Below are positions 2,428 to 63,657 of a DNA stretch of 64,000 nt, piece by piece (position 1 is the first letter of the stretch; every line of letters starts with the position of its first letter). The DNA is from Escherichia phage vB_EcoM_SA21RB. The stretch lies in sequence record OL960580. One strand, 5' to 3'. Both the position numbers and the translations under genes were made by a program. Under the pieces are notes generated by a model. The model saw only the letters and a program-made list of their open reading frames with translations. It was not told the origin of the DNA and ran no database searches.

Positions 2428-2457
2428 AATTATACCACATCCTTGTGGTAAAGTAAA
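2428..2457 (-). promoter_or_regulatory. T4-type early promoter for the rIIA.1-rIIA unit
   Basis: minus strand reads GTTTAC (-35), about 18 nt, TATAAT (-10); sits between the gene 39 stop and the rIIA.1 start. Confidence 0.55.
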
Positions 2458-4275
2458 CTATTGGCTCATCCATTCTTTACGAAGGTCAGCATTATCTCCC
2501 ATGAGCATTTCAAAAAGCTCTTTCCAGTTCTCAGGAAGTTTAACAACATCATATACTGGGTTTTGAATCATCTCACGATATTCAGATTTTTCCAAAGAGC
2601 CAAGTCCCTTAATATAACGGATGCTATGTTTAGGTAGAGCATCTTTGGCACTCTCATATTCAGTGACTGTATAAAACCATTCTTGTTTTTTACCGACCTG
2701 AGCGATGATTACAGGAGTTTTGACGAAGCGAATTCTTCCTTGTTCAAACAGTTCTGGCCAATTACTAAAAAATCCGAGCAGAGAAGGATAAATGCTCCCT
2801 AGACCATCATGGTCAGCATCAGTCATAATAGCAATATTATGATAATTCAAGTTTTCAGCCTTTTCACCAAGAACTAATCCAGTGATTGCGCAAATATCAA
2901 ACAGTTCTTTGTTTTTAAGCATATCAGCATATGACATACCCCAACTGTTGAGAACTTTACCACGCAATGGATAACCACCATGAAGTTCTTTATCACGAAC
3001 ATCAATAAGATATCCGATAGCAGAATCACCCTCAGTCAAGAAAAGAGTCGTGTCAGCATCTTTACCACAAAGATTCGCTTTAATATGTTTATGAACCTTA
3101 GCTTTAGAAGCCTTTTTAGCTGCTTTAGTTTCTGCTGCTTTTTCTGCCGCCAATTTACGAGCCAAGGCAGCTTCAATAATTGGCATTAAAATTGCTTCAT
3201 TATTTAAAATAGCGCGTGAAATCTTTTTAGCATCAAGCTGAATATGACTACGAATTTCACCAAATGGAGAAGTCAAACGCTCTTTAGTCTGAGAATCAAA
3301 TCGCATGTTTTTCATATCACGAACAAACATAACGATAGTCAAACATTCTTTAACACGTGCTTTAGTTACATCAATTTTGAACTTACGTTTGATTTGTGGA
3401 ATAAGGTCTTCACAAATATCATCCATAACACAGTCAATGTGATGACCACCATTCTTAGTATGAATGTTATTGACGTATGTTAATTGACGAAAACCATCCG
3501 GTGAACGACCAACCGCAATAGAACAATTTTCTTGTTCTTGAACAATAGCATGCTCATCATATTGGCGTGCATATTTCTTAAAATTACCCTGAACCTTTTT
3601 ACCGTTAAAGGTAAATTGAATATCAGGATAAACTACTGCAAGTGTCTGGAGACGATCTAGTGTAATGTCAAGATAAACCTGAGATAGCTCATTAGTTTCA
3701 AATGACATAAAATCAGGAATGAAAGTAACACGAGTTCCTTTCCATTTTCCAGGAATATCTTCCCATGATTTATTTTCCATGCCATTTGAACAACGAACTA
3801 CAATATTATTTTGACCGTCGCCAGTTTCACCGACAAACATCACAGAAAAAATGTTAGTTAAACTAGAACCAACACCGTTCATACCGCCAGTGACGCGTTC
3901 TTTGTCATCACCAAAGTTACCACCTGCTTTTGGAATAGTCCAAGCTGCAACAGGACCAGGAATTTCTTCACCAGTAGGTGTTTTAACCATCGCTTGTGGA
4001 ATACCACGACCGTTATCTTCAACTGTTACTTGATTGTTTTTAATAGTAACATTAATTTTATTCGCGAATTTAAACTTAGTACGAATACCTTCATCTACTG
4101 AGTTATCGATAATTTCATCAATAAGCTTAACAAGACCAGGTACATACTGAACACTTTCCCATTTACCAAACAGAAAGCGCTCATGCATTTCATTAGCAGA
4201 AGAACCAATGTACATGCCGCTACGCTTTTTGATATGTTCAATATCGCTCAGAATTTTAATTTCATTCTTAATCAT
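2458..4275 (-). CDS. 39: DNA topoisomerase II large subunit, single uninterrupted ORF covering the T4 gp39 and gp60 regions
   Basis: ORF track starts at GTG 4278; next codon is ATG 4275 with GAGGA SD, giving 605 aa; GyrB-like ATPase N-terminus; C-terminus NIAIMTDADHDGLGSIYPSLLGFF...RKEWMSQ matches my memory of T4 gp60. Confidence 0.9.
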   Translation of the reverse strand: MIKNEIKILSDIEHIKKRSGMYIGSSANEMHERFLFGKWESVQYVPGLVKLIDEIIDNSVDEGIRTKFKFANKINVTIKNNQVTVEDNGRGIPQAMVKTPTGEEIPGPVAAWTIPKAGGNFGDDKERVTGGMNGVGSSLTNIFSVMFVGETGDGQNNIVVRCSNGMENKSWEDIPGKWKGTRVTFIPDFMSFETNELSQVYLDITLDRLQTLAVVYPDIQFTFNGKKVQGNFKKYARQYDEHAIVQEQENCSIAVGRSPDGFRQLTYVNNIHTKNGGHHIDCVMDDICEDLIPQIKRKFKIDVTKARVKECLTIVMFVRDMKNMRFDSQTKERLTSPFGEIRSHIQLDAKKISRAILNNEAILMPIIEAALARKLAAEKAAETKAAKKASKAKVHKHIKANLCGKDADTTLFLTEGDSAIGYLIDVRDKELHGGYPLRGKVLNSWGMSYADMLKNKELFDICAITGLVLGEKAENLNYHNIAIMTDADHDGLGSIYPSLLGFFSNWPELFEQGRIRFVKTPVIIAQVGKKQEWFYTVTEYESAKDALPKHSIRYIKGLGSLEKSEYREMIQNPVYDVVKLPENWKELFEMLMGDNADLRKEWMSQ

Positions 4276-5810: not shown

Positions 5811-6080
5811 TTAATTGAACAGTGGAGCGATGCGTTTCAGAAGAGTAGCAGCACCTTTGGCGAATTTTACATCATGAAAAACAGTTTCTTCTTCCGTTAC
5901 AACACGAGCTTTAATGTTTTCACAATCCCAATTTTTACGAACAATCTTCAAAAGCTGCAGTAAATCTTTACATTCAGCAATATCGATAACACATCCACGA
6001 GAATCTTCCATTATCGCACGATAACCGTAAGCCATACCATAATCGTTGAAAGACTGTTCGATGATAATTAAGTTTTCCAT
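5811..6080 (-). CDS. hypothetical protein
   Basis: ORF track start is TTG 6092; ATG at 6080 with GGAG SD gives 89 aa; preceded by a promoter-leader cassette. Confidence 0.5.
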   Translation of the reverse strand: MENLIIIEQSFNDYGMAYGYRAIMEDSRGCVIDIAECKDLLQLLKIVRKNWDCENIKARVVTEEETVFHDVKFAKGAATLLKRIAPLFN

Positions 6081-6187
6081 TTTATTCTCCAAGTTGTTTT
6101 CTGTATCAGTAGTTGATATTGATATAGTACCATAATCAACTACCGATGTATATAGTTTTATGAAAAAATTTTAAACTTTATGCAAAT

Positions 6188-15541: not shown

Positions 15542-15571
15542 ATTATACCATACTCATTTTGATATGTAAAC
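15542..15571 (-). promoter_or_regulatory. T4-type early promoter
   Basis: minus strand GTTTAC, 18 nt, TATAAT; lies just downstream (in transcription sense) of the soc terminator. Confidence 0.5.
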
Positions 15572-15580
15572 CATTTAAAT

Positions 15581-15604
15581 GAAAAAGGACTCCCGAAGGA
15601 GTCC
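15581..15604 (-). terminator. intrinsic terminator after soc
   Basis: minus RNA GGACUCC-UUCG-GGAGUCC followed by UUUUU. Confidence 0.65.
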
Positions 15605-15613
15605 TTAAATTAT

Positions 15614-16806: not shown

Positions 16807-16877
16807 TATTTTTCCTTTCAATTCATGGGTTAGTAGATTAATTATACAATAAATATATAAAGCAATAAGGAGGACAT

Positions 16878-18105: not shown

Positions 18106-18270
18106 TTACTCTTCTTTTTCTTTAGATTCCTCTTTTTTCTTTTTAGGAATCTGTTCAGGACCTTTATTTACTACAGCGCCTGACGTTGTTCCAGTAGAGA
18201 TATTTTCAGGATTACCACCTGAATCTCCAGCTACCATATCTTCTTTGATAAATTCTTTATATGTTTTCAT
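18106..18270 (-). CDS. small hypothetical protein with MKTYKEFI N-terminus
   Basis: 54-aa ORF below the track cut-off; TAA then ATG of gene 61 two nt later; lysine-rich C-terminus. Confidence 0.4.
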   Translation of the reverse strand: MKTYKEFIKEDMVAGDSGGNPENISTGTTSGAVVNKGPEQIPKKKKEESKEKEE

Positions 18271-18271
18271 A

Positions 18272-18628: not shown

Positions 18629-18629
18629 A

Positions 18630-19557: not shown

Positions 19558-19617
19558 GATAATCTCCTCAGTAGTTTATGTTTATATAGTATCTCAATTT
19601 CCAATAAAAGTAAACAG

Positions 19618-23073: not shown

Positions 23074-23126
23074 TCATTTTTTCCATAGGCATCATTATAT
23101 TTTCCTCACTGGTTAAAGATAGAGTA

Positions 23127-23151
23127 ATTATAACACAATAAATTTAGGCAT
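23127..23151 (-). promoter_or_regulatory. middle-type (MotA-box) promoter for uvsX
   Basis: minus strand AATGCCTAA (MotA-box-like), 11 nt, TATAAT. Confidence 0.4.
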
Positions 23152-25523: not shown

Positions 25524-25533
25524 AATAATTTCC

Positions 25534-25770
25534 TCAAATACAAGTAGTAATTACTCCAGTAGTGCTTACACAGGTATTACCTAATTGAACACCCAGCGTT
25601 CCATTAGTATTCATATGAAGATTATCATCAATTTTTGTTGATACTTTACCATTCATGTGAATAATAGTATTAGATTCAATCACATTCTGAGTGTCATTTT
25701 CAATATCAATAAATGGAACAGTTGCTAATGCAACTAAACACACTGCTAAACAACCATAAACAATTTTCAT
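25534..25770 (-). CDS. small secreted protein
   Basis: ORF track extends to 25881 through the promoter; ATG 25770 with GGAG SD gives 78 aa MKIVYGCLAVCLVALATVPF... Confidence 0.5.
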   Translation of the reverse strand: MKIVYGCLAVCLVALATVPFIDIENDTQNVIESNTIIHMNGKVSTKIDDNLHMNTNGTLGVQLGNTCVSTTGVITTCI

Positions 25771-25804
25771 TTTATTCTCCAAATCCGTATCAGTTGATAG
25801 TTGT

Positions 25805-25834
25805 ATAGTACCATGGAAGAACGGGAATGTAAAC
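25805..25834 (-). promoter_or_regulatory. T4-type early promoter within a conserved promoter-leader cassette
   Basis: minus strand AAAATTTTTTTCACAAAACTGTTTAC...TGGTACTATACAACTATCAAC; same cassette at 50810, 52511 and 56099. Confidence 0.55.
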
Positions 25835-25913
25835 AGTTTTGTGAAAAAAATTTTTAATGAATTTACAGGACCTAGAATCATCTATTTTTCCTAAGTATAG
25901 ATTTATATTACTT

Positions 25914-28686: not shown

Positions 28687-28709
28687 TTGATATATTATAC
28701 TCCAAATAA

Positions 28710-28723
28710 GGGGCCGAAGCCCC
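28710..28723 (-). other. intercistronic C(UUCG)G hairpin between regA and gene 43
   Basis: minus RNA GGGGC-UUCG-GCCCC; TATAAT-like -10 just downstream. Confidence 0.45.
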
Positions 28724-28727
28724 TTGC

Positions 28728-29096
28728 TTAATTACCAATCGTATATTTAGGAACGAGTTTCCATTCATGTTTTTGTTTAAAAGAAATAACTCGGAAGTTA
28801 TTGGTTAAATCTTTCATAAAAGTTCTTTGACCAGGAACGATTTCAATCAGCCCCCAATCTTCTAACAGCCATGCAATCGAATCACGACGAACTTCATCTT
28901 CTTCTGTCATTTCAACCTGGCGGCCATCCATACGAAGCATTTCTTTAAAATGAACGATATAGTATAGTCCTTTTTTCTGAAGAATGTGGCAGGACTGATA
29001 CAGAACTTTATCTTTATTATTAGCAATTCCCATACGAGTCAAAGTTTCTTTTACTTTCAGAAAATCTTCAGGTTTTTTAAGAGTAATTTCAATCAT
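28728..29096 (-). CDS. regA: RegA translational repressor
   Basis: 122 aa MIEITLKKPEDFLKVKETLTRMG...; length and position (62-regA-43) as in T4. Confidence 0.85.
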   Translation of the reverse strand: MIEITLKKPEDFLKVKETLTRMGIANNKDKVLYQSCHILQKKGLYYIVHFKEMLRMDGRQVEMTEEDEVRRDSIAWLLEDWGLIEIVPGQRTFMKDLTNNFRVISFKQKHEWKLVPKYTIGN

Positions 29097-30622: not shown

Positions 30623-30656
30623 AATTTCCTCATTCAAGTTTTAGTGTAAATTATAA

Positions 30657-30670
30657 AGGGCCGAAGCCCT
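30657..30670 (-). other. intercistronic C(UUCG)G hairpin between genes 45 and 44
   Basis: minus RNA AGGGC-UUCG-GCCCU, 4 nt after the gene 45 stop. Confidence 0.45.
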
Positions 30671-30673
30671 CTA

Positions 30674-31360
30674 TTAAAAATCGTGGGTAGAATCAGCTTC
30701 AAGAGCTACTACATAATTCGCGTGTTCACCTTCAAATTTAGCAGCGCCTTGTTTACCTTTTGCCCAGAGCAGAAGTTTATAATTTCCCGGTTGCATTTTC
30801 ATATTTGCCATATTGATAATGAAATTAAATGTATTTTCACCATCATAATCACCAAGAGTCAAAGAATATTTAACACGAGTCAAAGCAGAATCTTCTACTT
30901 TATTAAAACCGTTAATTACGATTTTACCTTCTTTTACTGTGATAGCAATTGTATCAATCTGCAGACCACGAGATACACGCAACAGCTGTTGAAGGTCTTC
31001 AGCTTTAATTTCAGTAACAACAGATGCTACCGGGAATGGAATTGGTTTATTAGGAGCAACTACTGTACTCGGATCGGCTGCTGGCCAAAAAATTGTTGAA
31101 CGGGCATCAGCAATTTTAATATTTCCATCTTCTGACTGGGAAATTTCTGCATCGTCATTAACTAGAGACAGAATACCGAGAAAACCATTCAAATCGTAAA
31201 TTGCTACATCAAAATCAATAGTGTCAGAAATATTTGCTTCTGCATAAGTTGTACCATTAACTGCGCGAGTCATAATAAATTGACCAGATTTAAGCATAAT
31301 ACCAGAGTTAATAGTAGCGAAATTTTTAAGCAGAGCAGTAGTATCTTTAGACAGTTTCAT
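30674..31360 (-). CDS. 45: sliding clamp
   Basis: 228 aa MKLSKDTTALLKNFATINSGIML... matches my memory of T4 gp45. Confidence 0.93.
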   Translation of the reverse strand: MKLSKDTTALLKNFATINSGIMLKSGQFIMTRAVNGTTYAEANISDTIDFDVAIYDLNGFLGILSLVNDDAEISQSEDGNIKIADARSTIFWPAADPSTVVAPNKPIPFPVASVVTEIKAEDLQQLLRVSRGLQIDTIAITVKEGKIVINGFNKVEDSALTRVKYSLTLGDYDGENTFNFIINMANMKMQPGNYKLLLWAKGKQGAAKFEGEHANYVVALEADSTHDF

Positions 31361-31814: not shown

Positions 31815-32003
31815 TTAGTCATAATAATCAGTAACAGTCCAAGCTTCATTCCTGTTGGACATTATTTTCGTATATTCTGATTTAAATGCATTCTTAAGCA
31901 TAGATTCAGTAACTATATGCTCTTCATTAGAAAAATTATTTCTCAGAATATATCGTTTTATTTCAGGAATAGTTAATAGATGCTGTCCAGTTGAATATTC
32001 CAT
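31815..32003 (-). CDS. small hypothetical protein (position of T4 45.2)
   Basis: 62 aa, ATG start. Confidence 0.5.
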   Translation of the reverse strand: MEYSTGQHLLTIPEIKRYILRNNFSNEEHIVTESMLKNAFKSEYTKIMSNRNEAWTVTDYYD

Positions 32004-32058
32004 GTTTTTCCTCCATAGAGATTATACTCTAATAAATTAAAGCATAATCTCTTATAAA

Positions 32059-33741
32059 TTAAACCATTACAGTAAATCGACCAACTTTCTTCATTTGAAG
32101 ATGCTGACCATATGCTTGTGGGTCATGGTCTCTATGCGAAATAACAAAAACGTTAGTATTTTTTAAACTATCTAAAATAGTTGAAATAGCTTTTACACCT
32201 TCAACATCGGTCGCTGAATCAAAAACTTCATCAAGAATTAATGTGTTTATTTTAACACCTGAAACTTTTTCAGCAATATCACGCCAAGTAAATAAAAGAG
32301 CAATATCAATTCGTGCTTTTTCACCTTGACTAAATGAAGCATAACTAAAATCTTCACGACCACGGGATTTAATTGTCTCATTAAATTCTTCATCTAATGT
32401 AAACACATAATCCGCTTCCATTATTTTAAGATAATGGTTAATCTGCTTATTAAATAATGGAATGTACTTTTTAATAATAGCACCTTTAATACCAGAATCT
32501 TTGAGCATATCAGTCAAAATTCCTCTGTGGTATTTTTCCATTACTAAATTAGTTTTTGTCTTAACAATTTTATCAAGTTCTTCTTGAAGCAGTGCTATTT
32601 CATCAGCATGGTCAATAAACTCAGATGATGCTTTTTCTATAGCCGCTTTAACTTTTTTAGCTTTATCTACCGTCGTGATTAAGGATTGCTTTTTATTGCG
32701 AATATCATTTGCCAACGTCTGCTGGGTTTTAATATTATCTCGGTATTCGTCAACAAGAACTTTTAAATTATCACGATGTGTTGAAAGCTGTTCAAATGAA
32801 TGCGTGCATTCAGAAACTTTATCTTTAATTTTAGAAACAACTTTATCACCGGAACTTAATTGTGACAAACAGGTTGGACATAATCCACCTTCGTGATACA
32901 TATTAATGACTTTATTATACGAGTCAATTTTTGATTTAATTAAAAATGCTTCTTGACCGATTTTATTAAATGCATCAGTCGGGTCTTCATCCAAAACAAT
33001 ATTAACTAATCTTTCATTAGCTTCTTCTATTTCCGATTTTAGCGTTCTAGCTTCTTTTGCCAAATCATCATACATATTCTGTAGACGAGTAAGGTTATCA
33101 CCTGTTAATTTTTTCTGACGTTCAACGTTATCATTATATATTTTAATTTGTTGGATAATACTATCTTTTTTAACATCAAGCACTTGGTTTTGTGAATTTA
33201 ATTCACGTATTAGTGCTTTATTAAGCTTATCCATTTCAGCTAATGTTCCTACCTCAAGCAGGTCTTCCACAAGCTTTCTTCGCGCAGGGGTCGACAAACC
33301 CATGAAAGGGGTATACCCTGCTGTACCAAGGACAACAATCTGCTTGAAACTGGCATATGACATTCCGATAAGCTGTTCAAATTCTGCTTGGAAATCTTTA
33401 CTGCTGGCAGATTCATTAAGACGTGTACCGTTAACGGTGATTTCGAAAACGTTTGGTTTTTGTCCTCTTTTGATATAGTACTTTTTCTCATCATATTCCA
33501 TCCACAGTTCAACTAAAAGTTCTTTCTTATTTGTGCTGTTTATTAATTGGCCTTTCTTTACATCACGAAATGGCTTGCCAAAAAGCCCAAATGTGATGGC
33601 TTCTAACATAGTAGACTTACCACCGCCATTTCGTCCAGTAATAAGAGTTTTTTGAACCTTATCTAGTTGAATGTCAATAGGATTTCCACCTACTGACATT
33701 ATATTTTGATACCTAACTCGATTTAGTTTAAAATTCTTCAC
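32059..33741 (-). CDS. 46: recombination endonuclease subunit (SbcC/Rad50-like)
   Basis: 560 aa; Walker A GRNGGGKST, zinc hook CPTC, coiled coils, C-terminal Walker B LILDEVFD; first codon reads GTG. Confidence 0.93.
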   Translation of the reverse strand: MKNFKLNRVRYQNIMSVGGNPIDIQLDKVQKTLITGRNGGGKSTMLEAITFGLFGKPFRDVKKGQLINSTNKKELLVELWMEYDEKKYYIKRGQKPNVFEITVNGTRLNESASSKDFQAEFEQLIGMSYASFKQIVVLGTAGYTPFMGLSTPARRKLVEDLLEVGTLAEMDKLNKALIRELNSQNQVLDVKKDSIIQQIKIYNDNVERQKKLTGDNLTRLQNMYDDLAKEARTLKSEIEEANERLVNIVLDEDPTDAFNKIGQEAFLIKSKIDSYNKVINMYHEGGLCPTCLSQLSSGDKVVSKIKDKVSECTHSFEQLSTHRDNLKVLVDEYRDNIKTQQTLANDIRNKKQSLITTVDKAKKVKAAIEKASSEFIDHADEIALLQEELDKIVKTKTNLVMEKYHRGILTDMLKDSGIKGAIIKKYIPLFNKQINHYLKIMEADYVFTLDEEFNETIKSRGREDFSYASFSQGEKARIDIALLFTWRDIAEKVSGVKINTLILDEVFDSATDVEGVKAISTILDSLKNTNVFVISHRDHDPQAYGQHLQMKKVGRFTVMV

Positions 33742-35360: not shown

Positions 35361-35378
35361 AGCTAAAGGGCCGAAGCC
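35361..35378 (-). other. C(UUCG)G hairpin at the 3' end of alpha-gt
   Basis: minus RNA AAAGGGC-UUCG-GCCCUUU immediately after the alpha-gt stop. Confidence 0.45.
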
Positions 35379-35380
35379 CT

Positions 35381-36583
35381 TTATTTTGTAATAATGTCAA
35401 ACTGCTCTTTAAAGCAGAAGCTTGAATCTTGATGCTGATACAAAAATTCATATGCTTTTTCTCGCTCACGATCATAAAGAGCTCGGTCAGATGACAGTTC
35501 TTTAATACGTTCAAATGTTGATTCCATATCATTTTCATCAAACCAAATGATACCGCTATCATGCGAGGTCAAAGGAGTATTATCAACACGGAATTTTAAA
35601 TTTTCGCCAGTAGATTTCCAAAATACCGGAATTGTTCCACATGCACCAAGCTCGAGATGAGTATATTCTAAAGAACGTTGTAGATATTTTTTATCTAATT
35701 TACTCAGCTGATAACCAAATCCGGATTTACTCATGCGTTCAAGCATTTCGCTATTTACATAACGGTCGAGAATTTGCGTTGGCAAATTAGGAGCAATTTT
35801 AATTTGGTCTACTTGATGAAGACGATAATACTCGTATGGAATTCCTTTTTCTTTAATAGGAATGAATGCTGGAGAACGTTCCAGACCTTCCATAATAGTA
35901 CTTAGTCCTGCAGGTTTAAGATGTTTTTCGTGAAAATCAAACATCTGATAAAAGCCTTTCCATGTAGTAGTACGACCAATCCAACGGTTGATATTCATGT
36001 TAATTTCAGAAACATCTTTCCAGTAAGTTGATCGAACCTTCGCAATATCCATAGGAGGCTGGAAGTTATATACGGTCGGTGCTTCTTCAATATCATCAAA
36101 CAGAGAAACAGTTTCCGGATACCATTCTTTCATCAGAACTTTATTAAAATCACCATTATCAGAATGACTAAAAATAACATCAGCTCGACGAACAGTTTCT
36201 TCTAATCCCAAATTTCGACGTAAAGAAAGAGAAGAATGGTCATGTTGATAAACTACAACACGAACCGAAGGTTTAATGTTATCAATAATTTTTTTATAGT
36301 TATTAATTGTGTCTTCTTCGACTGAAGTAGCAGGAACTGAATTGATAATTAGAATATCACAATCATTTACCAGCTTAAGTGTTTTATCGTATTCTTTTGC
36401 CAATAAAACCGGAATTGAAAATGACTTATAATCATGCGCGCAATTACGAGTAAATGATTTATCTTTAGCATAAACCAAAGTTACTTCATGACCATTTTTA
36501 ATAAACCAATCACGCTGCTCAAGAGAAAATTTAGTTACGCCACAACCTTCAAGACCTCGAGCCATAAAAATGCATACTTTCAT
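35381..36583 (-). CDS. a-gt: alpha-glucosyltransferase (hmC DNA)
   Basis: 400 aa; ...CIFMARGLEGCGVTKFSLEQRDWFIKNGHEVTLVYAKDKSF... matches my memory of T4 Agt. Confidence 0.9.
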   Translation of the reverse strand: MKVCIFMARGLEGCGVTKFSLEQRDWFIKNGHEVTLVYAKDKSFTRNCAHDYKSFSIPVLLAKEYDKTLKLVNDCDILIINSVPATSVEEDTINNYKKIIDNIKPSVRVVVYQHDHSSLSLRRNLGLEETVRRADVIFSHSDNGDFNKVLMKEWYPETVSLFDDIEEAPTVYNFQPPMDIAKVRSTYWKDVSEINMNINRWIGRTTTWKGFYQMFDFHEKHLKPAGLSTIMEGLERSPAFIPIKEKGIPYEYYRLHQVDQIKIAPNLPTQILDRYVNSEMLERMSKSGFGYQLSKLDKKYLQRSLEYTHLELGACGTIPVFWKSTGENLKFRVDNTPLTSHDSGIIWFDENDMESTFERIKELSSDRALYDREREKAYEFLYQHQDSSFCFKEQFDIITK

Positions 36584-36633
36584 TTAATATCCTCATTGTT
36601 TTGGTTTATTTTACCAAAAATTTATAAAGCAAT

Positions 36634-38994: not shown

Positions 38995-39020
38995 ATTATC
39001 CAAAAAGGGCCGAAGCCCTT
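38995..39020 (-). terminator. intrinsic terminator / C(UUCG)G hairpin
   Basis: minus RNA AAGGGC-UUCG-GCCCUU followed by UUUUG and AU-rich sequence. Confidence 0.5.
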
Positions 39021-39219
39021 AGCTAAACTTTTTGGCACCCTTCCAGCCTTCATACATCATTGCGGCTGATATTAATATTGCTCCTGAGCAACTTGAATAT
39101 TTGTGATTCCAAAACCAGTTTAGAAAAACTTCGTCATCAATACCTTGGGCTATCATATTTTCAAAGAACTGACGACGAGCTTCGGCAATTCGCTGCGATA
39201 ATTTAGATTCAGGATTCAT
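39019..39219 (-). CDS. small hypothetical protein
   Basis: 66 aa; stop codon sits within the hairpin. Confidence 0.45.
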   Translation of the reverse strand: MNPESKLSQRIAEARRQFFENMIAQGIDDEVFLNWFWNHKYSSCSGAILISAAMMYEGWKGAKKFS

Positions 39220-39851: not shown

Positions 39852-39881
39852 ATAATACCACGGTTTGAACCTGTTGTAAAC
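39852..39881 (-). promoter_or_regulatory. T4-type early promoter
   Basis: minus strand AT-rich upstream, GTTTAC, 18 nt, TATTAT. Confidence 0.5.
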
Positions 39882-39962
39882 AACTTTGTGAAAAATATTT
39901 TAGGGAATGATAAGAAAGGAACGATAGCTTAGAATGGTAATATACAGAATGTAAGAAAGAAA

Positions 39963-40918: not shown

Positions 40919-41389
40919 TTAATCATGTTTCCACACCCCATCGGTATTTGACCAAAGTCGCTGATTATCTGATCCTCTCCACAGCTTTTTGGTAGGAAGA
41001 TTTTTCTCATACTTCCCATCAATAATAACATCAACATATTTAAGCATTTCTAGTTGTTTAATATCTTCAAATTTATATCCTGTCCACAACCAAATGCTTT
41101 TATTTGGATAAAGATTTTTTACTGTTTGAACAATGCAATGAACAACATCTCTGTTATCAGGATAAAGAGGGTCACCCCCAGTTATAGTTAATCCTTCTAT
41201 ATAATCATTATTTAAACATTCAATTAATTGTTCTAGTGTTTCACCAGTGAATGGAACGCCATTTCTAGCATTCCATGTTGATTTATTATAACATCCTTCA
41301 CATTTATGCAAACATCCCGTAACGAAAAGAACGACCCTGCATCCAGGGCCATTCACAAAATCACAGGGATAAAATCTATCGTAATTCAT
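40919..41389 (-). CDS. nrdG: anaerobic ribonucleotide reductase activating protein (radical SAM)
   Basis: 156 aa; CxxxCxxC-type cluster (GCLHKCEGCYN); adjacent to nrdD. Confidence 0.9.
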   Translation of the reverse strand: MNYDRFYPCDFVNGPGCRVVLFVTGCLHKCEGCYNKSTWNARNGVPFTGETLEQLIECLNNDYIEGLTITGGDPLYPDNRDVVHCIVQTVKNLYPNKSIWLWTGYKFEDIKQLEMLKYVDVIIDGKYEKNLPTKKLWRGSDNQRLWSNTDGVWKHD

Positions 41390-43203
41390 TGGTGTTTAAC
41401 CCTATGCATGATTTCTTTATTTTTGCCAAGATTAAATCCGCGTTCGTTCGGATTTCCCAAATAACCACAAGTTCTTCTTATTGTGTTCATCTTTTTAGGA
41501 TCAGTTTCTCCACAAATAGAACAAACAAATCCGTTTTCAGTAGGAGTCATTTCATGGGTACTTCCACATGTAAAACATTTATCTACTGGCATGTTAACAC
41601 CAAAATAATCTAAATGTTGTGCAGCATAATCCCATACAGCCTCAAGACCTTTTAGGTTATTTTTCATATCAGGAAGTTCAACATAAGAAATGTGACCACC
41701 TGTCGCAATGAAATGATATGGGGCTTCTCGAGAAATCTTTTCAAACGGAGTGATATTTTCTTCTACTGAAACGTGGAAACTATTAGTGTACCATCCTTTA
41801 TCAGTAACATCCTTTACACTTCCATATTTTTCGGTATCGAGTTTACAGAAGCGATAACACAAGTTTTCAGCAGGTGTAGAATACAAGCTAAAAGCAAAAC
41901 CAGTTCTTTCAGTCCACTGCTTAAGACGAGCATTCATTTTAGTTAAAATTTCCTGTCCAATATCACGACCGACAAGAATATTCAATTCGTGAATACCGAT
42001 GTATCCTAGGGACACTGAACTTCTACCATTTTTAAATAACTCAATTATGTCATCATCAGGTTTAAGACGAACCCCGAATGCACCTTCTTGGTAAAGAATA
42101 GGAGCAACAGTCGCTTTAACTCCTTTTAAGGAACTAATTCTACACATCAAAGCTTCAAAACACAAATCCATTCGTTCATTGAACAATTCAACAAATTTCT
42201 GTTCATTGAACTGTGTTCCAATATAAGAATCTAATGCAATACGAGGAAGATTCAGTGTTACAACGCCAAGATTATTACGTCCATCAAGAATTTCATTACC
42301 AGTCGAATCTTTCCATACACTCAAGAAACTGCGGCAACCCATTGGAGAAACAGGAATAGATGAACCTGTGATAGCTTTATTGTTCTTAGCCGAAATGATG
42401 TCAGGATACATTCTTTTGCTTGCGCACTCTAAAGCAAGCTGCTTAATATCATAGTTCGGATCGTCTTTATAAAGATTAACACCTTCTTCAACGAACATAA
42501 CAAGTTTAGGGAAAATAGGAGTTATCCCATCACGACCGAGACCTTTAATACGATTTTTCAGAATTGCTTTCTGAATCATTCGTTCAGTCCAGTCAGTTCC
42601 CGTACCAAATGTAATTGTTACAAAAGGCGTTTGCCCGTTTGAACTAAAGAGAGTATTTACTTCATACTCATAAGCTTGAAATGCATCGTATACGTCTTTT
42701 TCTGTTTTAGATTGGGCGTAATTCAACGCATCAGCGATTTGCCATTTTTCTGCGTCCTCAATATGTTTTGCATAGGTGCGTTTAACATAAGGAGAAAGTA
42801 CTTTATCTACATTCGCAAAAGTCGTTCCGCCATATTGGTGGGAAGCAACCTGTGCAGTAATTTGCGCCATAATTGCAGTAGCAACGCCGATTGATTTAGG
42901 AGTTTCAATCTGTGCATTACCGAGCTTAAATCCGTTCTCAAGCATTCCTTTTAAATCTACTAAACAGCAATTAGTAAATGGAAGAGCAGGGGAATAATCA
43001 ATATCGTGGAAATGGATAATTCCGCTTTCATGCGCTTTCATAATAAAAGACGGGACCATATTTTTGGCAATGTGTTTAGACACAATACCAGCCATAAGGT
43101 CCCGTTGAGTTGGAAAAACACGAGAATCTTTATTAGCATTCTCGTTTAAAAGGTCTTTATTAGTTTTATGAATTAGTCCTTCAATTTCTTTTTCAATCGT
43201 CAT
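41386..43203 (-). CDS. nrdD: anaerobic ribonucleoside-triphosphate reductase, uninterrupted
   Basis: 605 aa continuous ORF; C-terminal Zn ribbon CFTCGS...CSICG and glycyl radical region RTCGYLG. Confidence 0.95.
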   Translation of the reverse strand: MTIEKEIEGLIHKTNKDLLNENANKDSRVFPTQRDLMAGIVSKHIAKNMVPSFIMKAHESGIIHFHDIDYSPALPFTNCCLVDLKGMLENGFKLGNAQIETPKSIGVATAIMAQITAQVASHQYGGTTFANVDKVLSPYVKRTYAKHIEDAEKWQIADALNYAQSKTEKDVYDAFQAYEYEVNTLFSSNGQTPFVTITFGTGTDWTERMIQKAILKNRIKGLGRDGITPIFPKLVMFVEEGVNLYKDDPNYDIKQLALECASKRMYPDIISAKNNKAITGSSIPVSPMGCRSFLSVWKDSTGNEILDGRNNLGVVTLNLPRIALDSYIGTQFNEQKFVELFNERMDLCFEALMCRISSLKGVKATVAPILYQEGAFGVRLKPDDDIIELFKNGRSSVSLGYIGIHELNILVGRDIGQEILTKMNARLKQWTERTGFAFSLYSTPAENLCYRFCKLDTEKYGSVKDVTDKGWYTNSFHVSVEENITPFEKISREAPYHFIATGGHISYVELPDMKNNLKGLEAVWDYAAQHLDYFGVNMPVDKCFTCGSTHEMTPTENGFVCSICGETDPKKMNTIRRTCGYLGNPNERGFNLGKNKEIMHRVKHQ

Positions 43204-47827: not shown

Positions 47828-47857
47828 ATTATACCACATCCTTGTGGCAAAGTAAAC
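47828..47857 (-). promoter_or_regulatory. T4-type early promoter, near-identical to the one at 2428..2457
   Basis: attataccacatccttgtggcaaagtaaac versus attataccacatccttgtggtaaagtaaac. Confidence 0.55.
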
Positions 47858-50782: not shown

Positions 50783-50809
50783 TTTCTGTTCCTCCGTAGT
50801 TGATAGTTG

Positions 50810-50840
50810 TATAGTACCATAGAGGAACAGTCTTGTAAAC
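50810..50840 (-). promoter_or_regulatory. T4-type early promoter (conserved cassette)
   Basis: minus strand GTTTAC...TGGTACTATACAACTATCAAC. Confidence 0.55.
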
Positions 50841-50842
50841 CA

Positions 50843-51157
50843 CTAAAAGAAACTTCTTTCACAATTTTTTCCACTGAACCATGCGCTCACTGCTTTCTTA
50901 GTCTCAGGAGCAGTGTTATCCATAAACCATTCAAAGGCAGCCTTTTTATGATTCTGGAGGGCTTCTCGGGCTTTAATCTGCTCACGGTCTATTAACACTA
51001 ACATATGAGCCTTTCTTGTCACCAAGGGCTTCTTATGATTCTTGGAGTATTCCCAGTCATTTGTCCAACGCATTGTCGTTGCGAACTGATGAACCGCGTC
51101 TTTAATTTTAGTTTCGTAAATTTCACGAGCCTTTGAGTATAACATCATTACCTCCAT
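50843..51157 (-). CDS. hypothetical protein
   Basis: 104 aa. Confidence 0.5.
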   Translation of the reverse strand: MEVMMLYSKAREIYETKIKDAVHQFATTMRWTNDWEYSKNHKKPLVTRKAHMLVLIDREQIKAREALQNHKKAAFEWFMDNTAPETKKAVSAWFSGKNCERSFF

Positions 51158-51246
51158 TTACCAGTTTAATTCTAGTCATCTTTTTAATGGCAGTCCATAT
51201 AATCTATTTCTGAACTGCCTTTTTATCTTAGAAGGCCTCTTATGAA

Positions 51247-52215
51247 TTATTTCAGAAGAGTAACCTCAGCGATTTCTTCCCAACCGTTTTTGTCGGTCAT
51301 AATAAAGTCAGCAAGATAAAGAGCAGTACGCAGTGAAACATTGCGTAAACGATTAACATTGACTTTCATCCATGATAATGCTTTATAAGTTTCTTCATCA
51401 GAAAGACCGCGCTTTTGCATCATGTCAGTTGAAAGAATAACATCTTCAACCCTAACCATAATTTCTTCATTAGTGTGAACACCCAAATCCAAATAAACTG
51501 AGCGGGACACTAATGCTTGTAAATGTGGAGCAAGTTTAGTACCACGGTCTAATTCGCGGTCAATGTCAACGTTTGTGATAAAAACAATCGTTCCTTTAAA
51601 TTCAAACTCGCGCTCAATGCCTTTTTCTTCTAAGTAAGAAGATGCAGTGCTCCAGCAGACTTTACGGGTCTCTCCAGTGTCCAGAGCAGCTTTCAGAAGA
51701 TTAAGAATGTCCATATCAGAGAAAACATCCACATCATCAATCAAAAGGACAGAATTCTCTTCACGATTATTCCAAAGTTGTTCATAAAGACCGATACCGG
51801 AGATTTTACCGTTAATGCTTTTATATTCAATGTATCCATTATCATTTGCTTTATTTAAAGCTTTATCTAAAGAATACGTTTTACCAATACCCGCCGCACC
51901 AGAGATAATTAATGAACGAATGTTTCCGTTAATAATACCATTCGTCATCATTCCCATAACATTAAATCTTTTATTAATGCGGGTTTTCATATCTTCATAC
52001 GATTCTTTAACTTCTTCAACTTTTACACCATCATATGAAATGTCTGATTTGTAAACCCAAACACCACGACGTTTACCGTCAATTTCAACAAAAACTTTAC
52101 CATCTCCTTGTGCATCTACCGGAGCATTATCTGGGAACCATTCACCTAAGAGCTCAAAAGTTCCAGAGATTTCTTTACCGAAGTAGATACCCTTATTGAT
52201 AGTTACAGTTTTCAT
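51247..52215 (-). CDS. P-loop ATPase (AAA-like)
   Basis: 322 aa; Walker A GAAGIGKT, Walker B VLLIDDVD. Confidence 0.65.
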   Translation of the reverse strand: MKTVTINKGIYFGKEISGTFELLGEWFPDNAPVDAQGDGKVFVEIDGKRRGVWVYKSDISYDGVKVEEVKESYEDMKTRINKRFNVMGMMTNGIINGNIRSLIISGAAGIGKTYSLDKALNKANDNGYIEYKSINGKISGIGLYEQLWNNREENSVLLIDDVDVFSDMDILNLLKAALDTGETRKVCWSTASSYLEEKGIEREFEFKGTIVFITNVDIDRELDRGTKLAPHLQALVSRSVYLDLGVHTNEEIMVRVEDVILSTDMMQKRGLSDEETYKALSWMKVNVNRLRNVSLRTALYLADFIMTDKNGWEEIAEVTLLK

Positions 52216-52272
52216 TTTATTCTCCTTTGATTTGATAGGACTACTATAACATAGTCCTATCAGTTTGTATAC

Positions 52273-52473
52273 TTATTTTGACATTTCTTCGATGTCACGA
52301 CGATACCCGTCACGAACTTCACGAAGAGCTTCAAGGCCACACATAGGCTCGATACCAGTAATGTGAACTTGATTAATCTGATACTCTACATCTTCTAACT
52401 GAGTGAAAACATAACGACGTTCAGCTGCGCACCCAGATTTAGCTTTACCGAAACGTTTATTCAAAGTAGTCAT
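52273..52473 (-). CDS. small hypothetical protein
   Basis: 66 aa directly behind a promoter cassette. Confidence 0.5.
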   Translation of the reverse strand: MTTLNKRFGKAKSGCAAERRYVFTQLEDVEYQINQVHITGIEPMCGLEALREVRDGYRRDIEEMSK

Positions 52474-52510
52474 TTTGTATCTCCAATTTACTCATTTGTT
52501 TTGATAGTTG

Positions 52511-52541
52511 TATAGTACCATAAAGCTTTATGCTTGTAAAC
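52511..52541 (-). promoter_or_regulatory. T4-type early promoter (conserved cassette)
   Basis: minus strand AAAAATTTTTCACAAAACTGTTTAC...TGGTACTATACAACTATCAA. Confidence 0.55.
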
Positions 52542-52561
52542 AGTTTTGTGAAAAATTTTTG

Positions 52562-52590
52562 AAATAAAAAAAGGGAGCCCGAAGGCTCCC
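52562..52590 (-). terminator. strong intrinsic terminator
   Basis: minus RNA GGGAGCC-UUCG-GGCUCCC followed by UUUUUUUAUUU. Confidence 0.7.
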
Positions 52591-52592
52591 TA

Positions 52593-56071: not shown

Positions 56072-56098
56072 GATGTTCTCCTCTTTATCCGATAGTTG

Positions 56099-56129
56099 TA
56101 TAGTACCACAGCTCAAACGGAAAGTAAAC
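56099..56129 (-). promoter_or_regulatory. T4-type early promoter (conserved cassette)
   Basis: minus strand GTTTAC...TGGTACTATACAACTATC. Confidence 0.55.
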
Positions 56130-56137
56130 CGGTAAAA

Positions 56138-56161
56138 TGAAAAAAGTCTCCCGAAGGAGAC
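56138..56161 (-). terminator. intrinsic terminator
   Basis: minus RNA GUCUCC-UUCG-GGAGAC followed by UUUUUUCA. Confidence 0.65.
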
Positions 56162-56166
56162 TAATG

Positions 56167-62470: not shown

Positions 62471-62944
62471 TTATTTGAATGATTTGACGTACTGAATAGA
62501 ACCTTTACTATTCACGAAAGCGATTTTACCATTTTTATTATACATGGTAGCAGTACGCTGATAGCCATAAGTTTGTTTACCAGATTGATAACCAACTAAT
62601 GCGAAATTATCTTCACCCATTTTATTCTGTTTAGCGCGAATACGTTCATGACCGTGTGCCATAAGAACCTTAGCATCACCAGTTGCAATGGATCGACGAG
62701 TTTTTTCATCTTCAACTGTATTAACAAAGTCGTCAAATGAATCAAATTTAGCATGAGATTTATTATACAGTTTTCCATCTACTGCATAATTATATCCTTG
62801 TACATCCATCTCAACTTCTGTACCATCATCCAATACAGCAGTGATTTTCTGACCTTTTTTAAATTTCAAAAGATCAGTAAAAGATTCAGCAATAATTTGA
62901 GAATTAATAGCTGCTTCAGTAATAAATTCTTGATATGTTTTCAT
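62471..62944 (-). CDS. internal-protein-like head protein with capsid targeting sequence
   Basis: 157 aa starting MKTYQEFITEA, the conserved N-terminal targeting sequence of T4 internal proteins; length differs from T4 IPII. Confidence 0.7.
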   Translation of the reverse strand: MKTYQEFITEAAINSQIIAESFTDLLKFKKGQKITAVLDDGTEVEMDVQGYNYAVDGKLYNKSHAKFDSFDDFVNTVEDEKTRRSIATGDAKVLMAHGHERIRAKQNKMGEDNFALVGYQSGKQTYGYQRTATMYNKNGKIAFVNSKGSIQYVKSFK

Positions 62945-62985: not shown

Positions 62986-63567
62986 TTAAGAATTACCACG
63001 GGCTGCATTAGCAACGGCGTAAGCGTACTGAACATTAGCGTCTTTAAACGTACCTTTAGAGGTATCTAGTTCTGCCTTAAAGCCGCCTTTAGTCATAACC
63101 TCGGCGAATTCTTTACGGAAAGCCATTGCATCAAGGCTTCTCCATGATGATTTGTGCTTGGCGAATTCAAGACCAGCGTAGTTGACAGCCTTAGCTAATT
63201 TATTATCAATAACCCATTTACCAGATTTAGGCACAAACACCGGGCCTTTCTGTTTAGAGAATAGTTTTAAATTCCAGCGACGAAGGTCACCGTCAGCTTT
63301 AACAAAAGCTGCGTCCAAGTTACTAGCAACAACATCTTGAATATGACCAAATTTAAGCCCATCAACTTCAATATTTAAATCGGTACGCCAGCGAAGTCCT
63401 TCCCAAGCGAAGGCTTTAAAGTCGGAAGCCTTTGTAGCTAAGTACCGTTCAATAGGAGCTGTTTTAGGGTCAAAGCCGTTTCCCGATCGGTAGGTCCACT
63501 CATCTTTATTAATGCCTTTGGCCTTTACTACAGAAGCTTCGGCAATAAATTCTTGATAGGTTTTCAT
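62986..63567 (-). CDS. ipIII: internal protein III
   Basis: 193 aa starting MKTYQEFIAEA; length matches T4 IPIII; directly upstream of e. Confidence 0.7.
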   Translation of the reverse strand: MKTYQEFIAEASVVKAKGINKDEWTYRSGNGFDPKTAPIERYLATKASDFKAFAWEGLRWRTDLNIEVDGLKFGHIQDVVASNLDAAFVKADGDLRRWNLKLFSKQKGPVFVPKSGKWVIDNKLAKAVNYAGLEFAKHKSSWRSLDAMAFRKEFAEVMTKGGFKAELDTSKGTFKDANVQYAYAVANAARGNS

Positions 63568-63627: not shown

Positions 63628-63657
63628 ATACTATCACAATTCCAAGAGAAAGTAAAC
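63628..63657 (-). promoter_or_regulatory. T4-type early promoter for the internal protein genes
   Basis: minus strand GTTTAC, 18 nt, TAGTAT between e and ipIII. Confidence 0.5.

What the first reader, a model, noticed from the sequence alone, without database searches (positions are those of the whole stretch)
52500..52590. Repeated promoter-leader cassettes paired with stem-loop terminators flank accessory genes
A near-identical module of about 55 bp, minus-strand AAAATTTTTCACAAAACTGTTTAC-(17)-TGGTACTATACAACTATCAAC, recurs at about 25790-25858, 50797-50845, 52500-52560 and 56089-56135, with a degenerate copy at 6106-6176. Several copies sit next to C(UUCG)G hairpin terminators (52573-52590, 56146-56161). 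A second family (ATTATACCACATCCTTGTGG.AAAGTAAAC) is almost identical at 2428-2457 and 47828-47857. Such early-promoter plus stem-loop repeats have been proposed in T4-type phages as substrates for modular gene shuffling.
Basis: partly seen in the sequence, partly recalled or inferred. Interest (0 to 1): 0.5.

Follow-up and report, generated by a model that had tools for sequence, protein, structure and literature searches.

The report
T4 early promoter-terminator cassettes (PeSLs)
The repeats are the strong early promoters of a T4-like phage, some joined to terminator hairpins; these cassettes are already described in the literature, and here they do mark several places where small accessory genes were gained or lost.

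Summary
The window is the first ~64 kb of a Tequatrovirus (T4-like) genome. The repeats are real and far from chance. They are sigma-70 early promoters of the T4 type: an A/T-rich UP tract, GTTTAC, 15 nt, then TGnTAnnnT. I found 20 such sites, all on the minus strand. The five copies in the finding are a subfamily with an identical extended -10 (TGGTACTAT) and a similar start region (ACAACTATC). Their spacers are unrelated, and only 2-3 copies share the upstream half, so "near-identical 55 bp" is overstated. T4 and three other genomes carry the same copies at orthologous sites. Only 3 of 20 promoters have a UUCG terminator hairpin upstream. Seven or eight others have an inverted repeat bracketing the -10 instead.

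The shuffling idea is published as PeSLs (Repoila 1994; Arbiol 2010; Comeau 2014, which includes T4/PST), and this window supports it:
- A 275-bp module carrying a 66-aa ORF at 52226-52500 is 95% identical in Mosigvirus phages at a different locus.
- The filled and empty sites of that module join at the -35 hexamer, or at the -10/start region and the ribosome-binding site.
- Phage SH-1 carries a two-module insertion whose crossover lies in a -35 hexamer.
- 7 of 19 indels that carry no homing-endonuclease gene touch a cassette (2.9 expected); 0 of 12 homing-endonuclease indels do.

This is a known kind of feature and of low novelty.

The parts
52474..52568 (-). Family-1 early promoter in the finding. 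UP tract 52542-52565, -35 GTTTAC 52536-52541, TGG plus -10 TACTAT 52512-52520, then start region and leader up to the ORF66 ATG at 52473.
   Evidence: PWM score 43.5. Orthologous to the T4 promoter upstream of nrdC.10.
52572..52591 (-). Intrinsic terminator after nrdC.11: AGGGAGCC-UUCG-GGCUCCCU followed by U7.
   Evidence: (-17.1 kcal/mol, z -3.7). Identical in T4.
52273..52473 (-). ORF66, a 66-aa accessory gene (phrog_6200, unknown function). It is the cargo of the 275-bp module at 52226-52500, which is absent from T4, LF73P1, SH-1 and HP3.
   Evidence: It is 95% identical at a different locus in Mosigvirus JS09 and moskry.
52232..52272 (-). P', a second promoter-like element at the downstream end of the module: GTATAC-N15-TGTTATAGT. 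A 12-bp stem (GATAGGACTA.. / ..TAGTCCTATC) encloses the -10.
   Evidence: -17.7 kcal/mol, z -6.3. Its -35 is the crossover point between the filled and empty Mosigvirus sites.
52215..52225 (-). Ribosome-binding site of nrdC.10. It is a perfect match to the strong RegB/S1 cleavage consensus GGAGRAYARAA and forms the right-hand junction of the ORF66 module.
   Evidence: consensus from PMC3014915.
56072..56140 (-). Family-1 early promoter (core 56100-56129) with its leader, upstream of a 62-aa ORF (the mobD.5 orthologue).
   Evidence: (score 45.6).
56145..56162 (-). Intrinsic terminator after rI.-1: AGUCUCC-UUCG-GGAGACU followed by U6.
   Evidence: -10.8 kcal/mol, z -3.5.
50783..50860 (-). Family-1 early promoter (core 50811-50840) upstream of nrdC.8. 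A stem joins the spacer (CTGTTCCTC) to the ribosome-binding site (GAGGAACAG) and so brackets the -10.
   Evidence: -19.9 kcal/mol, z -3.9.
25770..25861 (-). Family-1 cassette from UP tract to ATG: core 25805-25834, RegB-type ribosome-binding site 25770-25780. It lies upstream of a 78-aa ORF (25534-25770) that T4 lacks.
   Evidence: It is 83% identical over 102 nt to the T4 nrdC.10 cassette.
6080..6184 (-). Degenerate family-1 cassette: -35 ATATAC, core 6124-6153, a 13-bp stem bracketing the -10, and a RegB-type ribosome-binding site at 6080-6090. Against T4 it is an island of 97% identity flanked by non-homologous DNA on both sides.
   Evidence: (-19.5 kcal/mol, z -5.5).
2429..2458 (-). Family-2 early promoter GTTTACTTTACCACAAGGATGTGGTATAAT, with the hairpin CCACA-AGGA-TGTGG inside the spacer. 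It lies upstream of rIIA.1.
47828..47857 (-). Family-2 early promoter, 29/30 identical to the copy at 2429-2458. It lies upstream of nrdC.4.
19586..19615 (-). Early promoter upstream of the spackle-like gene. Relative to this site, phage SH-1 has a 603-bp insertion of two promoter-plus-ORF modules, and the crossover lies in the -35 GTTTAC.
15542..15606 (-). Early promoter (core 15542-15571) with an upstream UUCG terminator (15585-15606). Its terminator/-35 half is 86% identical to that of the 56.1-kb copy.
   Evidence: (family D16).
39852..39899 (-). Early promoter that shares the upstream half of family 1 (AATATTTTTCACAAAGTTGTTTAC) but has a different -10 (TGGTATTAT). This shows that half-cassettes occur in different combinations.

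Best explanation
The repeats are T4-type early promoters, read by host sigma-70 RNA polymerase straight after infection. Each has an A/T-rich UP tract, the -35 element GTTTAC, an extended -10 (TGn plus TAnnnT) and a short leader ending in a GGAG ribosome-binding site. That site is also a target of the phage RegB RNase.

Many of the promoters are joined to a stem-loop. In some it is a UUCG intrinsic terminator just upstream, which isolates the unit from read-through. In others it is an inverted repeat that brackets the -10 or sits in the spacer. Together these form the composite 'promoter-early stem-loop' (PeSL) cassettes already described for T4-like phages.

The five copies in the finding are an old subfamily, conserved at the same loci in T4. 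They share the -10/start block, and three of them share the whole leader plus a perfect RegB site.

The cassettes are short patches of identity scattered through the accessory-gene regions. As a side effect, the phage's homologous recombination machinery uses them as crossover points. Small promoter-plus-ORF modules are therefore inserted, deleted or moved between loci and between genera.

Shown here: the sequence anatomy, orientation and orthology of the cassettes, and the positions of the indel junctions. Inferred: transcription start, termination, RegB cleavage and the recombination mechanism itself.
For: - A PWM built from 16 regex-selected sites finds 20 sites, all on the minus (transcribed) strand and none on the plus strand; 0.1 is expected in shuffles. 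Nearly all lie just upstream of an ORF with a ribosome-binding site.
- The consensus matches the published T4 early promoter: GTTTAC at -36 to -31, TGn, a UP tract (PMC1524935; PMC2988021).
- Both families sit at orthologous positions in T4, LF73P1, SH-1 and HP3.
- The terminator hairpins fold with z -3.4 to -3.7. The hairpins that bracket the -10 fold with z -3.9 to -6.3. Self pairing between spacer and start region is the best of 21 possible partners for 7 promoters.
- The only three perfect matches in 64 kb to the strong RegB site GGAGRAYARAA are the family-1 ribosome-binding sites (PMC3014915).
- Recombination, ORF66 module: it is present here and absent from T4. It is 95% identical at another locus in Mosigvirus. 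The Mosigvirus empty site is a hybrid of the two flanking promoters joined at the -35. The Tequatrovirus junctions lie at CTATCAA (start region) and GGAGAATA (ribosome-binding site).
- Recombination, SH-1: a two-module insertion with its crossover in GTTTAC.
- Recombination, statistics: 7 of 19 non-endonuclease indels have a junction in a cassette, against 1.4 expected under a uniform null and 2.9 under a gene-start null (P = 0.00015 and 0.02). For endonuclease indels the count is 0 of 12.
- The PeSL model has experimental support in RB49/phi1 (PMC2839356) and was extended to T4/PST (PMC4122927).
Against: - No transcript 5' or 3' ends were available for this phage, and I found no genome-wide start-site data for T4.
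- The enrichment test is small. It rests on four comparison genomes, the events are not phylogenetically independent, I sorted the indels into endonuclease and non-endonuclease classes after seeing them, and the gene calls are crude.
- Two of the seven 'cassette' events are better explained by microhomology inside or at the start of an ORF than by promoter-promoter exchange: 5873-6072, and the left-hand junction of 7179-8185.
- The indel at 25524-25762 could be loss or gain of a tandem paralogue through ATGAAAAT microhomology.
- Twelve of the 19 non-endonuclease indels are not at cassettes.
- The promoter spacers are not conserved, so the identical patches are short (6-21 nt).
Confidence: 0.82

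Rival explanations
1. The cassettes are purely regulatory. They resemble each other only because strong promoters, ribosome-binding sites and RegB sites are constrained to a consensus. They lie next to indels only because both are confined to intergenic DNA, and they play no part in recombination.
For: - The copies are conserved at orthologous loci rather than spreading.
- The spacers are no more alike than those of unrelated promoters.
- Enrichment over the gene-start null is modest (7 observed against 2.9 expected, P about 0.02, classification made after the fact).
- Several junctions are plain microhomology within ORFs.
Against: - Three events have junctions inside the promoter elements themselves, at base-pair resolution. 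These are the hybrid promoter at the Mosigvirus empty site, the SH-1 crossover in GTTTAC, and the Tequatrovirus ORF66 junctions at the start-region motif and the ribosome-binding site.
- The same module sits at 95% identity in unrelated contexts in two genera.
- Upstream and downstream half-cassettes occur in different combinations.
- Mini-circle formation between PeSLs has been shown experimentally in RB49/phi1 (PMC2839356).
Confidence: 0.13
2. The cassettes work like integron sites. A dedicated phage protein recognises the stem-loops, or the conserved -10/start block, and catalyses site-specific excision and insertion of ORF modules.
For: - Arbiol et al. raise this possibility.
- Stem-loops bracket the -10 in 7-8 of 21 promoters.
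- The 21-nt block is identical across copies and genomes, which is more than -10 function alone requires.
Against: - The crossover points differ between events: the -35 hexamer, the start region, the ribosome-binding site.
- The stems differ in sequence and position.
- No recombinase is known in T4 beyond the general UvsX/UvsW/gp46-47 machinery (established knowledge), which acts on short homologies.
- I did not search for such a protein.
Confidence: 0.04
3. The repeats are chance matches in A/T-rich DNA.
For: The window has 34.6% G+C, and the generic sigma-70 scan is barely above its shuffles (84 against 73.6).
Against: - Zero matches were expected for either half of the motif; 3-5 were found.
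- The PWM finds 20 sites on one strand and none on the other.
- The sites are conserved in four other genomes.
Confidence: 0.01

Closest known systems
Bacteriophage T4 early promoters (Pe), the 'uber' UP/-35/TGn/-10 class (Hinton 2010, PMC2988021; Nolan et al. 2006, PMC1524935)
   Same: GTTTAC at -36 to -31, 17-bp hexamer spacing, TGn, a TAnnnT -10 and an A/T UP tract. All are on the early-transcribed strand upstream of early or accessory ORFs. The very same sites exist in T4 (upstream of the cef region, imm.1, nrdC.8, nrdC.10, mobD.5, rIIA.1 and nrdC.4).
   Different: Nothing material. The subfamily's -10 is TACTAT rather than TATAAT, and it carries a conserved ACAACTATC start region. I could not confirm from accessible papers that these particular T4 sites have mapped 5' ends.
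PeSLs, promoter-early stem-loop cassettes (Arbiol et al. 2010, PMC2839356; Comeau et al. 2014, PMC4122927, T4/PST consensus TTTACW-N17-TAYWAT)
   Same: A composite of an early promoter and a stem-loop, followed by a ribosome-binding site and the start of a small ORF of unknown function. The stem-loop may be upstream, in the spacer or overlapping the -10. The cassettes are concentrated in plastic regions, lie next to indels, and include a promoter-ORF-promoter unit whose loss leaves one hybrid promoter.
   Different: - In RB49/phi1 the promoters are near-perfect TTGACA/TATAAT and the stems are G/C-rich.
- Here only 3 of 20 promoters have canonical terminators.
- One transfer used the start region and the ribosome-binding site as junctions, not two promoters.
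- Mini-circles were not tested here.
Internal-protein (IP) locus polymorphism of T-even phages (Repoila et al. 1994, as cited in PMC2839356)
   Same: The promoter at 63628-63657 heads an IP-type locus in which genes beginning MKTYQEFI are swapped between phages. The junction lies 25 nt downstream of the -10.
   Different: At that locus the conserved 5' coding sequence (the capsid-targeting leader) also supplies homology. The finding's copies lie elsewhere.
Morons of lambdoid phages (Hendrix et al. 2000, as discussed in PMC2839356)
   Same: A small accessory gene with its own promoter and terminator inserted between resident genes.
   Different: Morons are thought to arrive by illegitimate recombination, often in the opposite orientation. 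Here the regulatory elements are themselves the homology, and the orientation is always that of the neighbouring genes.

Membership tests
T4 early promoter (sigma-70, Pe class) | The -35 element GTTTAC (-36 to -31), 17-bp hexamer spacing, TGn, and a -10 element TAnnnT | tested here: met
   All four main copies and 15 other sites fit GTTTAC-N15-TGnTAnnnT. The copy at 6124 has ATATAC instead.
T4 early promoter (sigma-70, Pe class) | An A/T-rich UP-like tract at about -40 to -60 | tested here: met
   AAAAATTTTTCACAAAACT and similar tracts lie upstream of the -35. The tract is weaker in the 50.8-kb copy.
T4 early promoter (sigma-70, Pe class) | Orientation and position: on the early-transcribed strand, upstream of an ORF with a ribosome-binding site | tested here: met
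   20 of 20 sites are on the minus strand and none on the plus strand. Each is followed within about 25-45 nt by GGAG/GAGG and an ATG.
T4 early promoter (sigma-70, Pe class) | Orthology to promoters of T4 itself | tested here: met
   The same sequences sit at the same loci in T4 AF158101.
T4 early promoter (sigma-70, Pe class) | Transcription starts immediately after infection and is insensitive to chloramphenicol | not testable with these tools
   This needs 5'-end mapping. I found no accessible start-site dataset for T4.
PeSL (promoter-early stem-loop cassette) | A stable stem-loop joined to the promoter: upstream, in the spacer, or overlapping a promoter box | tested here: met
   Upstream UUCG terminators at 3 sites; stems bracketing the -10 at 7-8 sites; stems in the spacer at 2 sites. 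The remaining 7-8 promoters have no convincing stem, including the 25805 copy (-8.6 kcal/mol).
PeSL (promoter-early stem-loop cassette) | Lies immediately upstream of small ORFs of unknown function in plastic regions | tested here: met
   The five downstream ORFs (62-175 aa) match only PHROGs of unknown function and have no Pfam match.
PeSL (promoter-early stem-loop cassette) | Indel and replacement junctions between related genomes coincide with the cassettes | tested here: met
   7 of 19 non-endonuclease events, against 2.9 expected. Base-level junctions lie in promoter elements for the ORF66 and SH-1 events. Most events are elsewhere.
PeSL (promoter-early stem-loop cassette) | The stem-loop terminates or attenuates transcription, and recombination between neighbouring cassettes gives mini-circles | not testable with these tools
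   Shown experimentally only for RB49/phi1 (PMC2839356). Here there is only the hairpin plus U-run anatomy.
T4 middle (MotA) or late (gp55) promoter | A MotA box (a/t)(a/t)(a/t)TGCTTtA at -30, or the late promoter TATAAATA at -10 | tested here: not met
   Neither motif is present in the aligned cassettes. All have a sigma-70 -35 element.
Strong RegB/S1 cleavage site | GGAGRAYARAA in a translation-initiation region | tested here: met
   There are exactly three perfect matches in the window, all family-1 ribosome-binding sites (6080-6090, 25770-25780, 52215-52225), against 0.41 expected. Cleavage itself was not tested.

The most novel reading that the evidence does not exclude
The family-specific 21-nt block (TGGTACTATACAACTATCAAC) is identical across copies and across genomes. 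Together with the inverted repeats that bracket the -10 in about a third of the early promoters, it may be more than a promoter. It could be the recognition site of an unidentified phage factor. That factor might be a regulator defining a kinetic subclass of early promoters, or a recombination protein that would make these cassettes integron-like attachment sites.
Probability: 0.05. Interest if true: 0.65.

Novelty: already known. Interest (0 to 1): 0.2.

Why it matters
If the recombination role holds, these cassettes explain how T4-like phages take up, lose and exchange small accessory genes without disturbing neighbouring transcription units. Many such genes are thought to be host-range or anti-defence functions. 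That idea is already in the literature.

This window adds clean worked examples in the T-even group itself:
- A 66-aa gene module is polymorphic in both Tequatrovirus and Mosigvirus. Its filled and empty sites resolve to the -35 hexamer in one genus, and to the -10/start region and the ribosome-binding site in the other.
- The subfamily's shared leader is a perfect strong RegB site.

For annotation, the 20 sites give the early transcription map of this phage.

Tried and rejected
- Promoter annotation in the T4 GenBank record AF158101: none is held in the collection's copy.
- The T4 genome review PMC150520, for the list of mapped early promoters: not held.
- Genome-wide T4 start-site data: two literature searches found none.
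- Supplements of the 2014 PeSL paper, for PST/T4 cassette coordinates: none held.
- The generic sigma-70 scan is uninformative in this A/T-rich DNA (84 sites against 73.6 in shuffles), so I built a T4-type PWM instead. My first regular expression used the wrong spacing and found nothing.
- Rfam at gathering threshold over the whole window: no hits. The hairpins are not a curated RNA family.
- Pfam on the five downstream ORFs: no hits.
- Homing-endonuclease mobility as the cause of the cassette-adjacent indels: rejected. The seg/mob/I-Tev-type insertions carry no promoter and none touches a cassette.
- A simple precise deletion between the TATACAA repeats flanking ORF66 as the origin of the T4 arrangement: rejected. 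That would leave the P' hairpin behind, and T4 lacks it.

Full report
**What the window is.** A 7-kb stretch around the finding is 96-98% identical to hundreds of Tequatrovirus (T4-like) genomes. The whole window is collinear with the first ~62 kb of T4, from rIIA to vs.1, at 85-98% identity, broken by about 19 indels or replacements. Nearly all genes are on the minus strand.

**Checking the observation.**
- The minus-strand 21-mer TGGTACTATACAACTATCAAC occurs at 25793-25813 and 50799-50819 (exact), 52500-52520 (1 mismatch), and 56088-56108 and 6112-6132 (3 mismatches each). None is expected by chance.
- Segment by segment, the five copies are 100% identical in the extended -10 (TGGTACTAT) and 74% in the next 14 nt. 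Other early promoters share only 33% there. The copies are 53% identical in the UP tract and 36% in the spacer, which is no better than unrelated promoters. "A near-identical module of about 55 bp" is therefore overstated. What is shared is a conserved -10/start block, GTTTAC, and in some copies the UP tract.
- The gap between the two quoted halves is 15 nt.
- The two UUCG hairpins with U-runs are real: 52572-52591 at -17.1 kcal/mol and 56145-56162 at -10.8 kcal/mol, both with z about -3.6.
- The second family (2429-2458 and 47828-47857) is 29/30 identical. It has a small hairpin (CCACA-AGGA-TGTGG) inside the promoter spacer.

**What the repeats are.** A position-weight matrix built from 16 sites fitting GTTTAC-N15-TGnTAnnnT finds 20 sites above threshold. 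All are on the minus strand and none on the plus strand; 0.1 is expected in shuffles. Nearly every site lies 25-45 nt upstream of a GGAG/GAGG ribosome-binding site and an ATG.

This is the published T4 early-promoter architecture: GTTTAC at -36 to -31, TGn, a -10 element and an A-rich UP tract. Such promoters are described as "uber" UP/-35/TGn/-10 promoters that out-compete host promoters for sigma-70 polymerase (PMC1524935; PMC2988021). No MotA box or late TATAAATA motif is present.

T4, LF73P1, SH-1 and HP3 carry both families at the same loci. In T4 the family-1 sites lie upstream of the cef region, imm.1, nrdC.8, nrdC.10 and mobD.5, and the family-2 sites upstream of rIIA.1 and nrdC.4. These are old, conserved regulatory elements, not recent repeats. 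The five downstream ORFs (62-175 aa) match only PHROGs of unknown function and have no Pfam match. Rfam finds nothing in the window.

**The leader.** Three family members share the whole cassette from UP tract to ATG, including ATCAACT(ACT)GATACGGATTTGGAGAATAAAATG(A/G)AAA. They are window 6124, window 25805, and the T4 nrdC.10 promoter, whose ribosome-binding-site half is at 52215-52225 in the window. The ribosome-binding site GGAGAATAAAA is a perfect match to the strong RegB/S1 cleavage consensus GGAGRAYARAA (PMC3014915). These are the only three perfect matches in 64 kb, against 0.41 expected. The "promoter-leader cassette" description therefore holds for part of the family, and the leader's conservation has a plausible functional reason: translation initiation plus rapid inactivation by RegB. 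That reason is an inference.

**The stem-loops.** Only 3 of 20 promoters (15542, 52512, 56100) have a canonical UUCG terminator with a U-run just upstream. Other arrangements are more common.
- An inverted repeat pairs the spacer with the start region or ribosome-binding site, so that the -10 sits in the loop. This is seen at 6124, 7138, 20089, 50811, 52243 (P'), 55288 and 60292, and less clearly at 8247.
- Self pairing is the best of 21 possible partners for 7 promoters, and these stems fold with z -3.9 to -6.3.
- Family 2 has its stem inside the spacer.
- These positions match the PeSL subclasses described for RB49/phi1 (PMC2839356).
- At 50811 and 60292 the 3' arm contains the ribosome-binding site. 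Read-through transcripts could therefore have that site sequestered, while transcripts started at the promoter would not. This is an inference, by analogy with known T4 cases recalled from my own knowledge.

**Do the cassettes mark synteny breakpoints?** I chained blastn alignments of the window against T4, LF73P1, SH-1 and HP3 and measured each junction's distance to the nearest promoter.
- Twelve events are insertions or replacements of homing-endonuclease genes (seg, mob or I-Tev type). Six of them were examined directly: they carry no promoter and sit precisely between genes. None of the twelve touches a cassette.
- Of the 19 other events, 7 have a junction within -35 to +65 of a promoter. 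The expectation is 1.4 if junctions fall anywhere (P = 0.00015) and 2.9 if they fall near random gene starts (P = 0.02).
- This test is small, the classification was made after seeing the data, and the events are not phylogenetically independent.

**Base-level cases.**
1. ORF66 module in Tequatrovirus. Window 52226-52500 holds a leader, a 66-aa ORF, and a second promoter-like element P' (GTATAC-N15-TGTTATAGT inside a 12-bp stem). All four comparison genomes have 13 nt in its place. The left junction is at CTATCAA, just after the -10. The right junction is at the ribosome-binding site GGAGAATAAAATG of nrdC.10.
2. ORF66 module in Mosigvirus. The same module is 95% identical in JS09 and moskry, but between the RB69ORF134c and ORF133c homologues in the e-nudE region, with unrelated flanks. 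About 62 records have it at that locus; others, such as PhAPEC2, lack it. The empty site is a single hybrid promoter, with the UP tract and GTTTAC of the upstream promoter joined to the spacer, -10 and stem of P'. The difference between filled and empty sites is about 268 bp. That is one promoter-to-promoter unit with the crossover at the -35 hexamer, as the PeSL excision model predicts.
3. SH-1 insertion. At window 19609-19617, SH-1 has 603 bp containing two promoter-plus-ORF modules. The window's single promoter combines the upstream part of SH-1's first promoter with the downstream part of its third, joined in GTTTAC. SH-1's second module has the same leader as ORF66 (CTATCAAAACAAAYGAGTAAATGGAGA) in front of a different ORF.
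4. T4 comparison at 6 kb. Against T4, window 6073-6184 is a 112-bp island of 97% identity, and it is exactly the cassette, between non-homologous flanks.
5. IP locus. The promoter at 63628 heads the internal-protein locus, where genes are swapped 25 nt downstream of the -10. This is the polymorphism attributed to Repoila et al. 1994 in PMC2839356.

Weaker cases:
- 25524-25762 joins at ATGAAAAT and may be gain or loss of a tandem paralogue.
- 5873-6072 is a deletion inside an ORF.
- 7179-8185 runs from inside an ORF to a UP tract.

Upstream halves (terminator/UP/-35) and downstream halves (-10/start region/leader) also occur in different combinations across promoters. The T4 imm.1 promoter spacer resembles the nrdC.8 promoter spacer rather than its own orthologue in the window. 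Both points hint at exchange within promoters.

**Comparison with what is known.** Everything here fits two described things: T4 early promoters, and PeSL cassettes (Arbiol 2010; Comeau 2014). The 2014 paper explicitly covers the T4/PST pair, with the consensus TTTACW-N17-TAYWAT, and reports cassettes next to indels. The window adds worked examples: the ORF66 module in two genera, and junctions at the start region and ribosome-binding site as well as at promoters. It also adds the RegB-site observation. It does not add a new kind of element.

**Verdict.** Novelty: already known. Interest: low (0.2).

Noticed in passing
window 2458-4275 and 2794-2857: T4 has 1117 bp here that the window lacks (the gene 60 / mobA / gene 39 split region). 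The window has one 605-aa ORF, which suggests an unsplit large topoisomerase II subunit without the gene-60 bypass element.
   Followed up: no
window 16846-16867: About 900 bp of T4 (16826-17724, the dam methyltransferase gene) have no counterpart at this position in the window.
   Followed up: no
window 23062-24007: The T4 segA and beta-glucosyltransferase region (1941 bp) is replaced by 946 bp containing only small ORFs. Alpha-gt (35381-36583) is present. The DNA glucosylation pattern may therefore differ from T4.
   Followed up: no
window 42665/42666, 41368-41390, 36575-36598: The nrdD intron with I-TevII, and the mobC and mobB homing-endonuclease genes of T4, are absent. Conversely, LF73P1 and SH-1 carry GIY-YIG or HNH genes at window positions 23994, 32001-32072, 33725, 35198 and 51232-51265. 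All of these are inserted precisely between genes and have no promoter of their own.
   Followed up: partly
window 4327-4348, 28707-28728, 30654-30675, 35364-35385, 39003-39024: A separate family of GGGC-UUCG-GCCC hairpins (minus strand) lies between replication genes, not next to early promoters. In LF73P1 and HP3 a 219-bp small-ORF insertion sits exactly between a stop codon and the hairpin at 28707-28728.
   Followed up: partly
window 18268-18316 and 18626-18674; 18640-19262: A 49-bp direct repeat (94% identical) flanks a 623-bp segment that LF73P1 and SH-1 lack. This looks like a tandem paralogue duplication or deletion in the 61.1/61.2 region.
   Followed up: no
window 62471-62944 and 62986-63567: Two adjacent genes begin MKTYQEFI, the capsid-targeting leader typical of internal proteins. 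SH-1 has a denV-like gene (MTRINLTLVSELADQHL...) in place of the upstream one.
   Followed up: partly
window 52226-52279 (P'): The first 54 nt of the ORF66 module (P' with its hairpin) match at 83-94% identity at 1-6 places per genome in many other T-even-type phages, in varied contexts. P' may therefore be a repeated cassette in those genomes.
   Followed up: no
L007 (SH-1) 262 and HP3 concatenate (reverse complement of L009+L010) 222, i.e. upstream of the window start: A further exact copy of TGGTACTATACAACTATCAAC lies just beyond the left end of the window in SH-1 and HP3. The family therefore has at least one more member outside the window.
   Followed up: no
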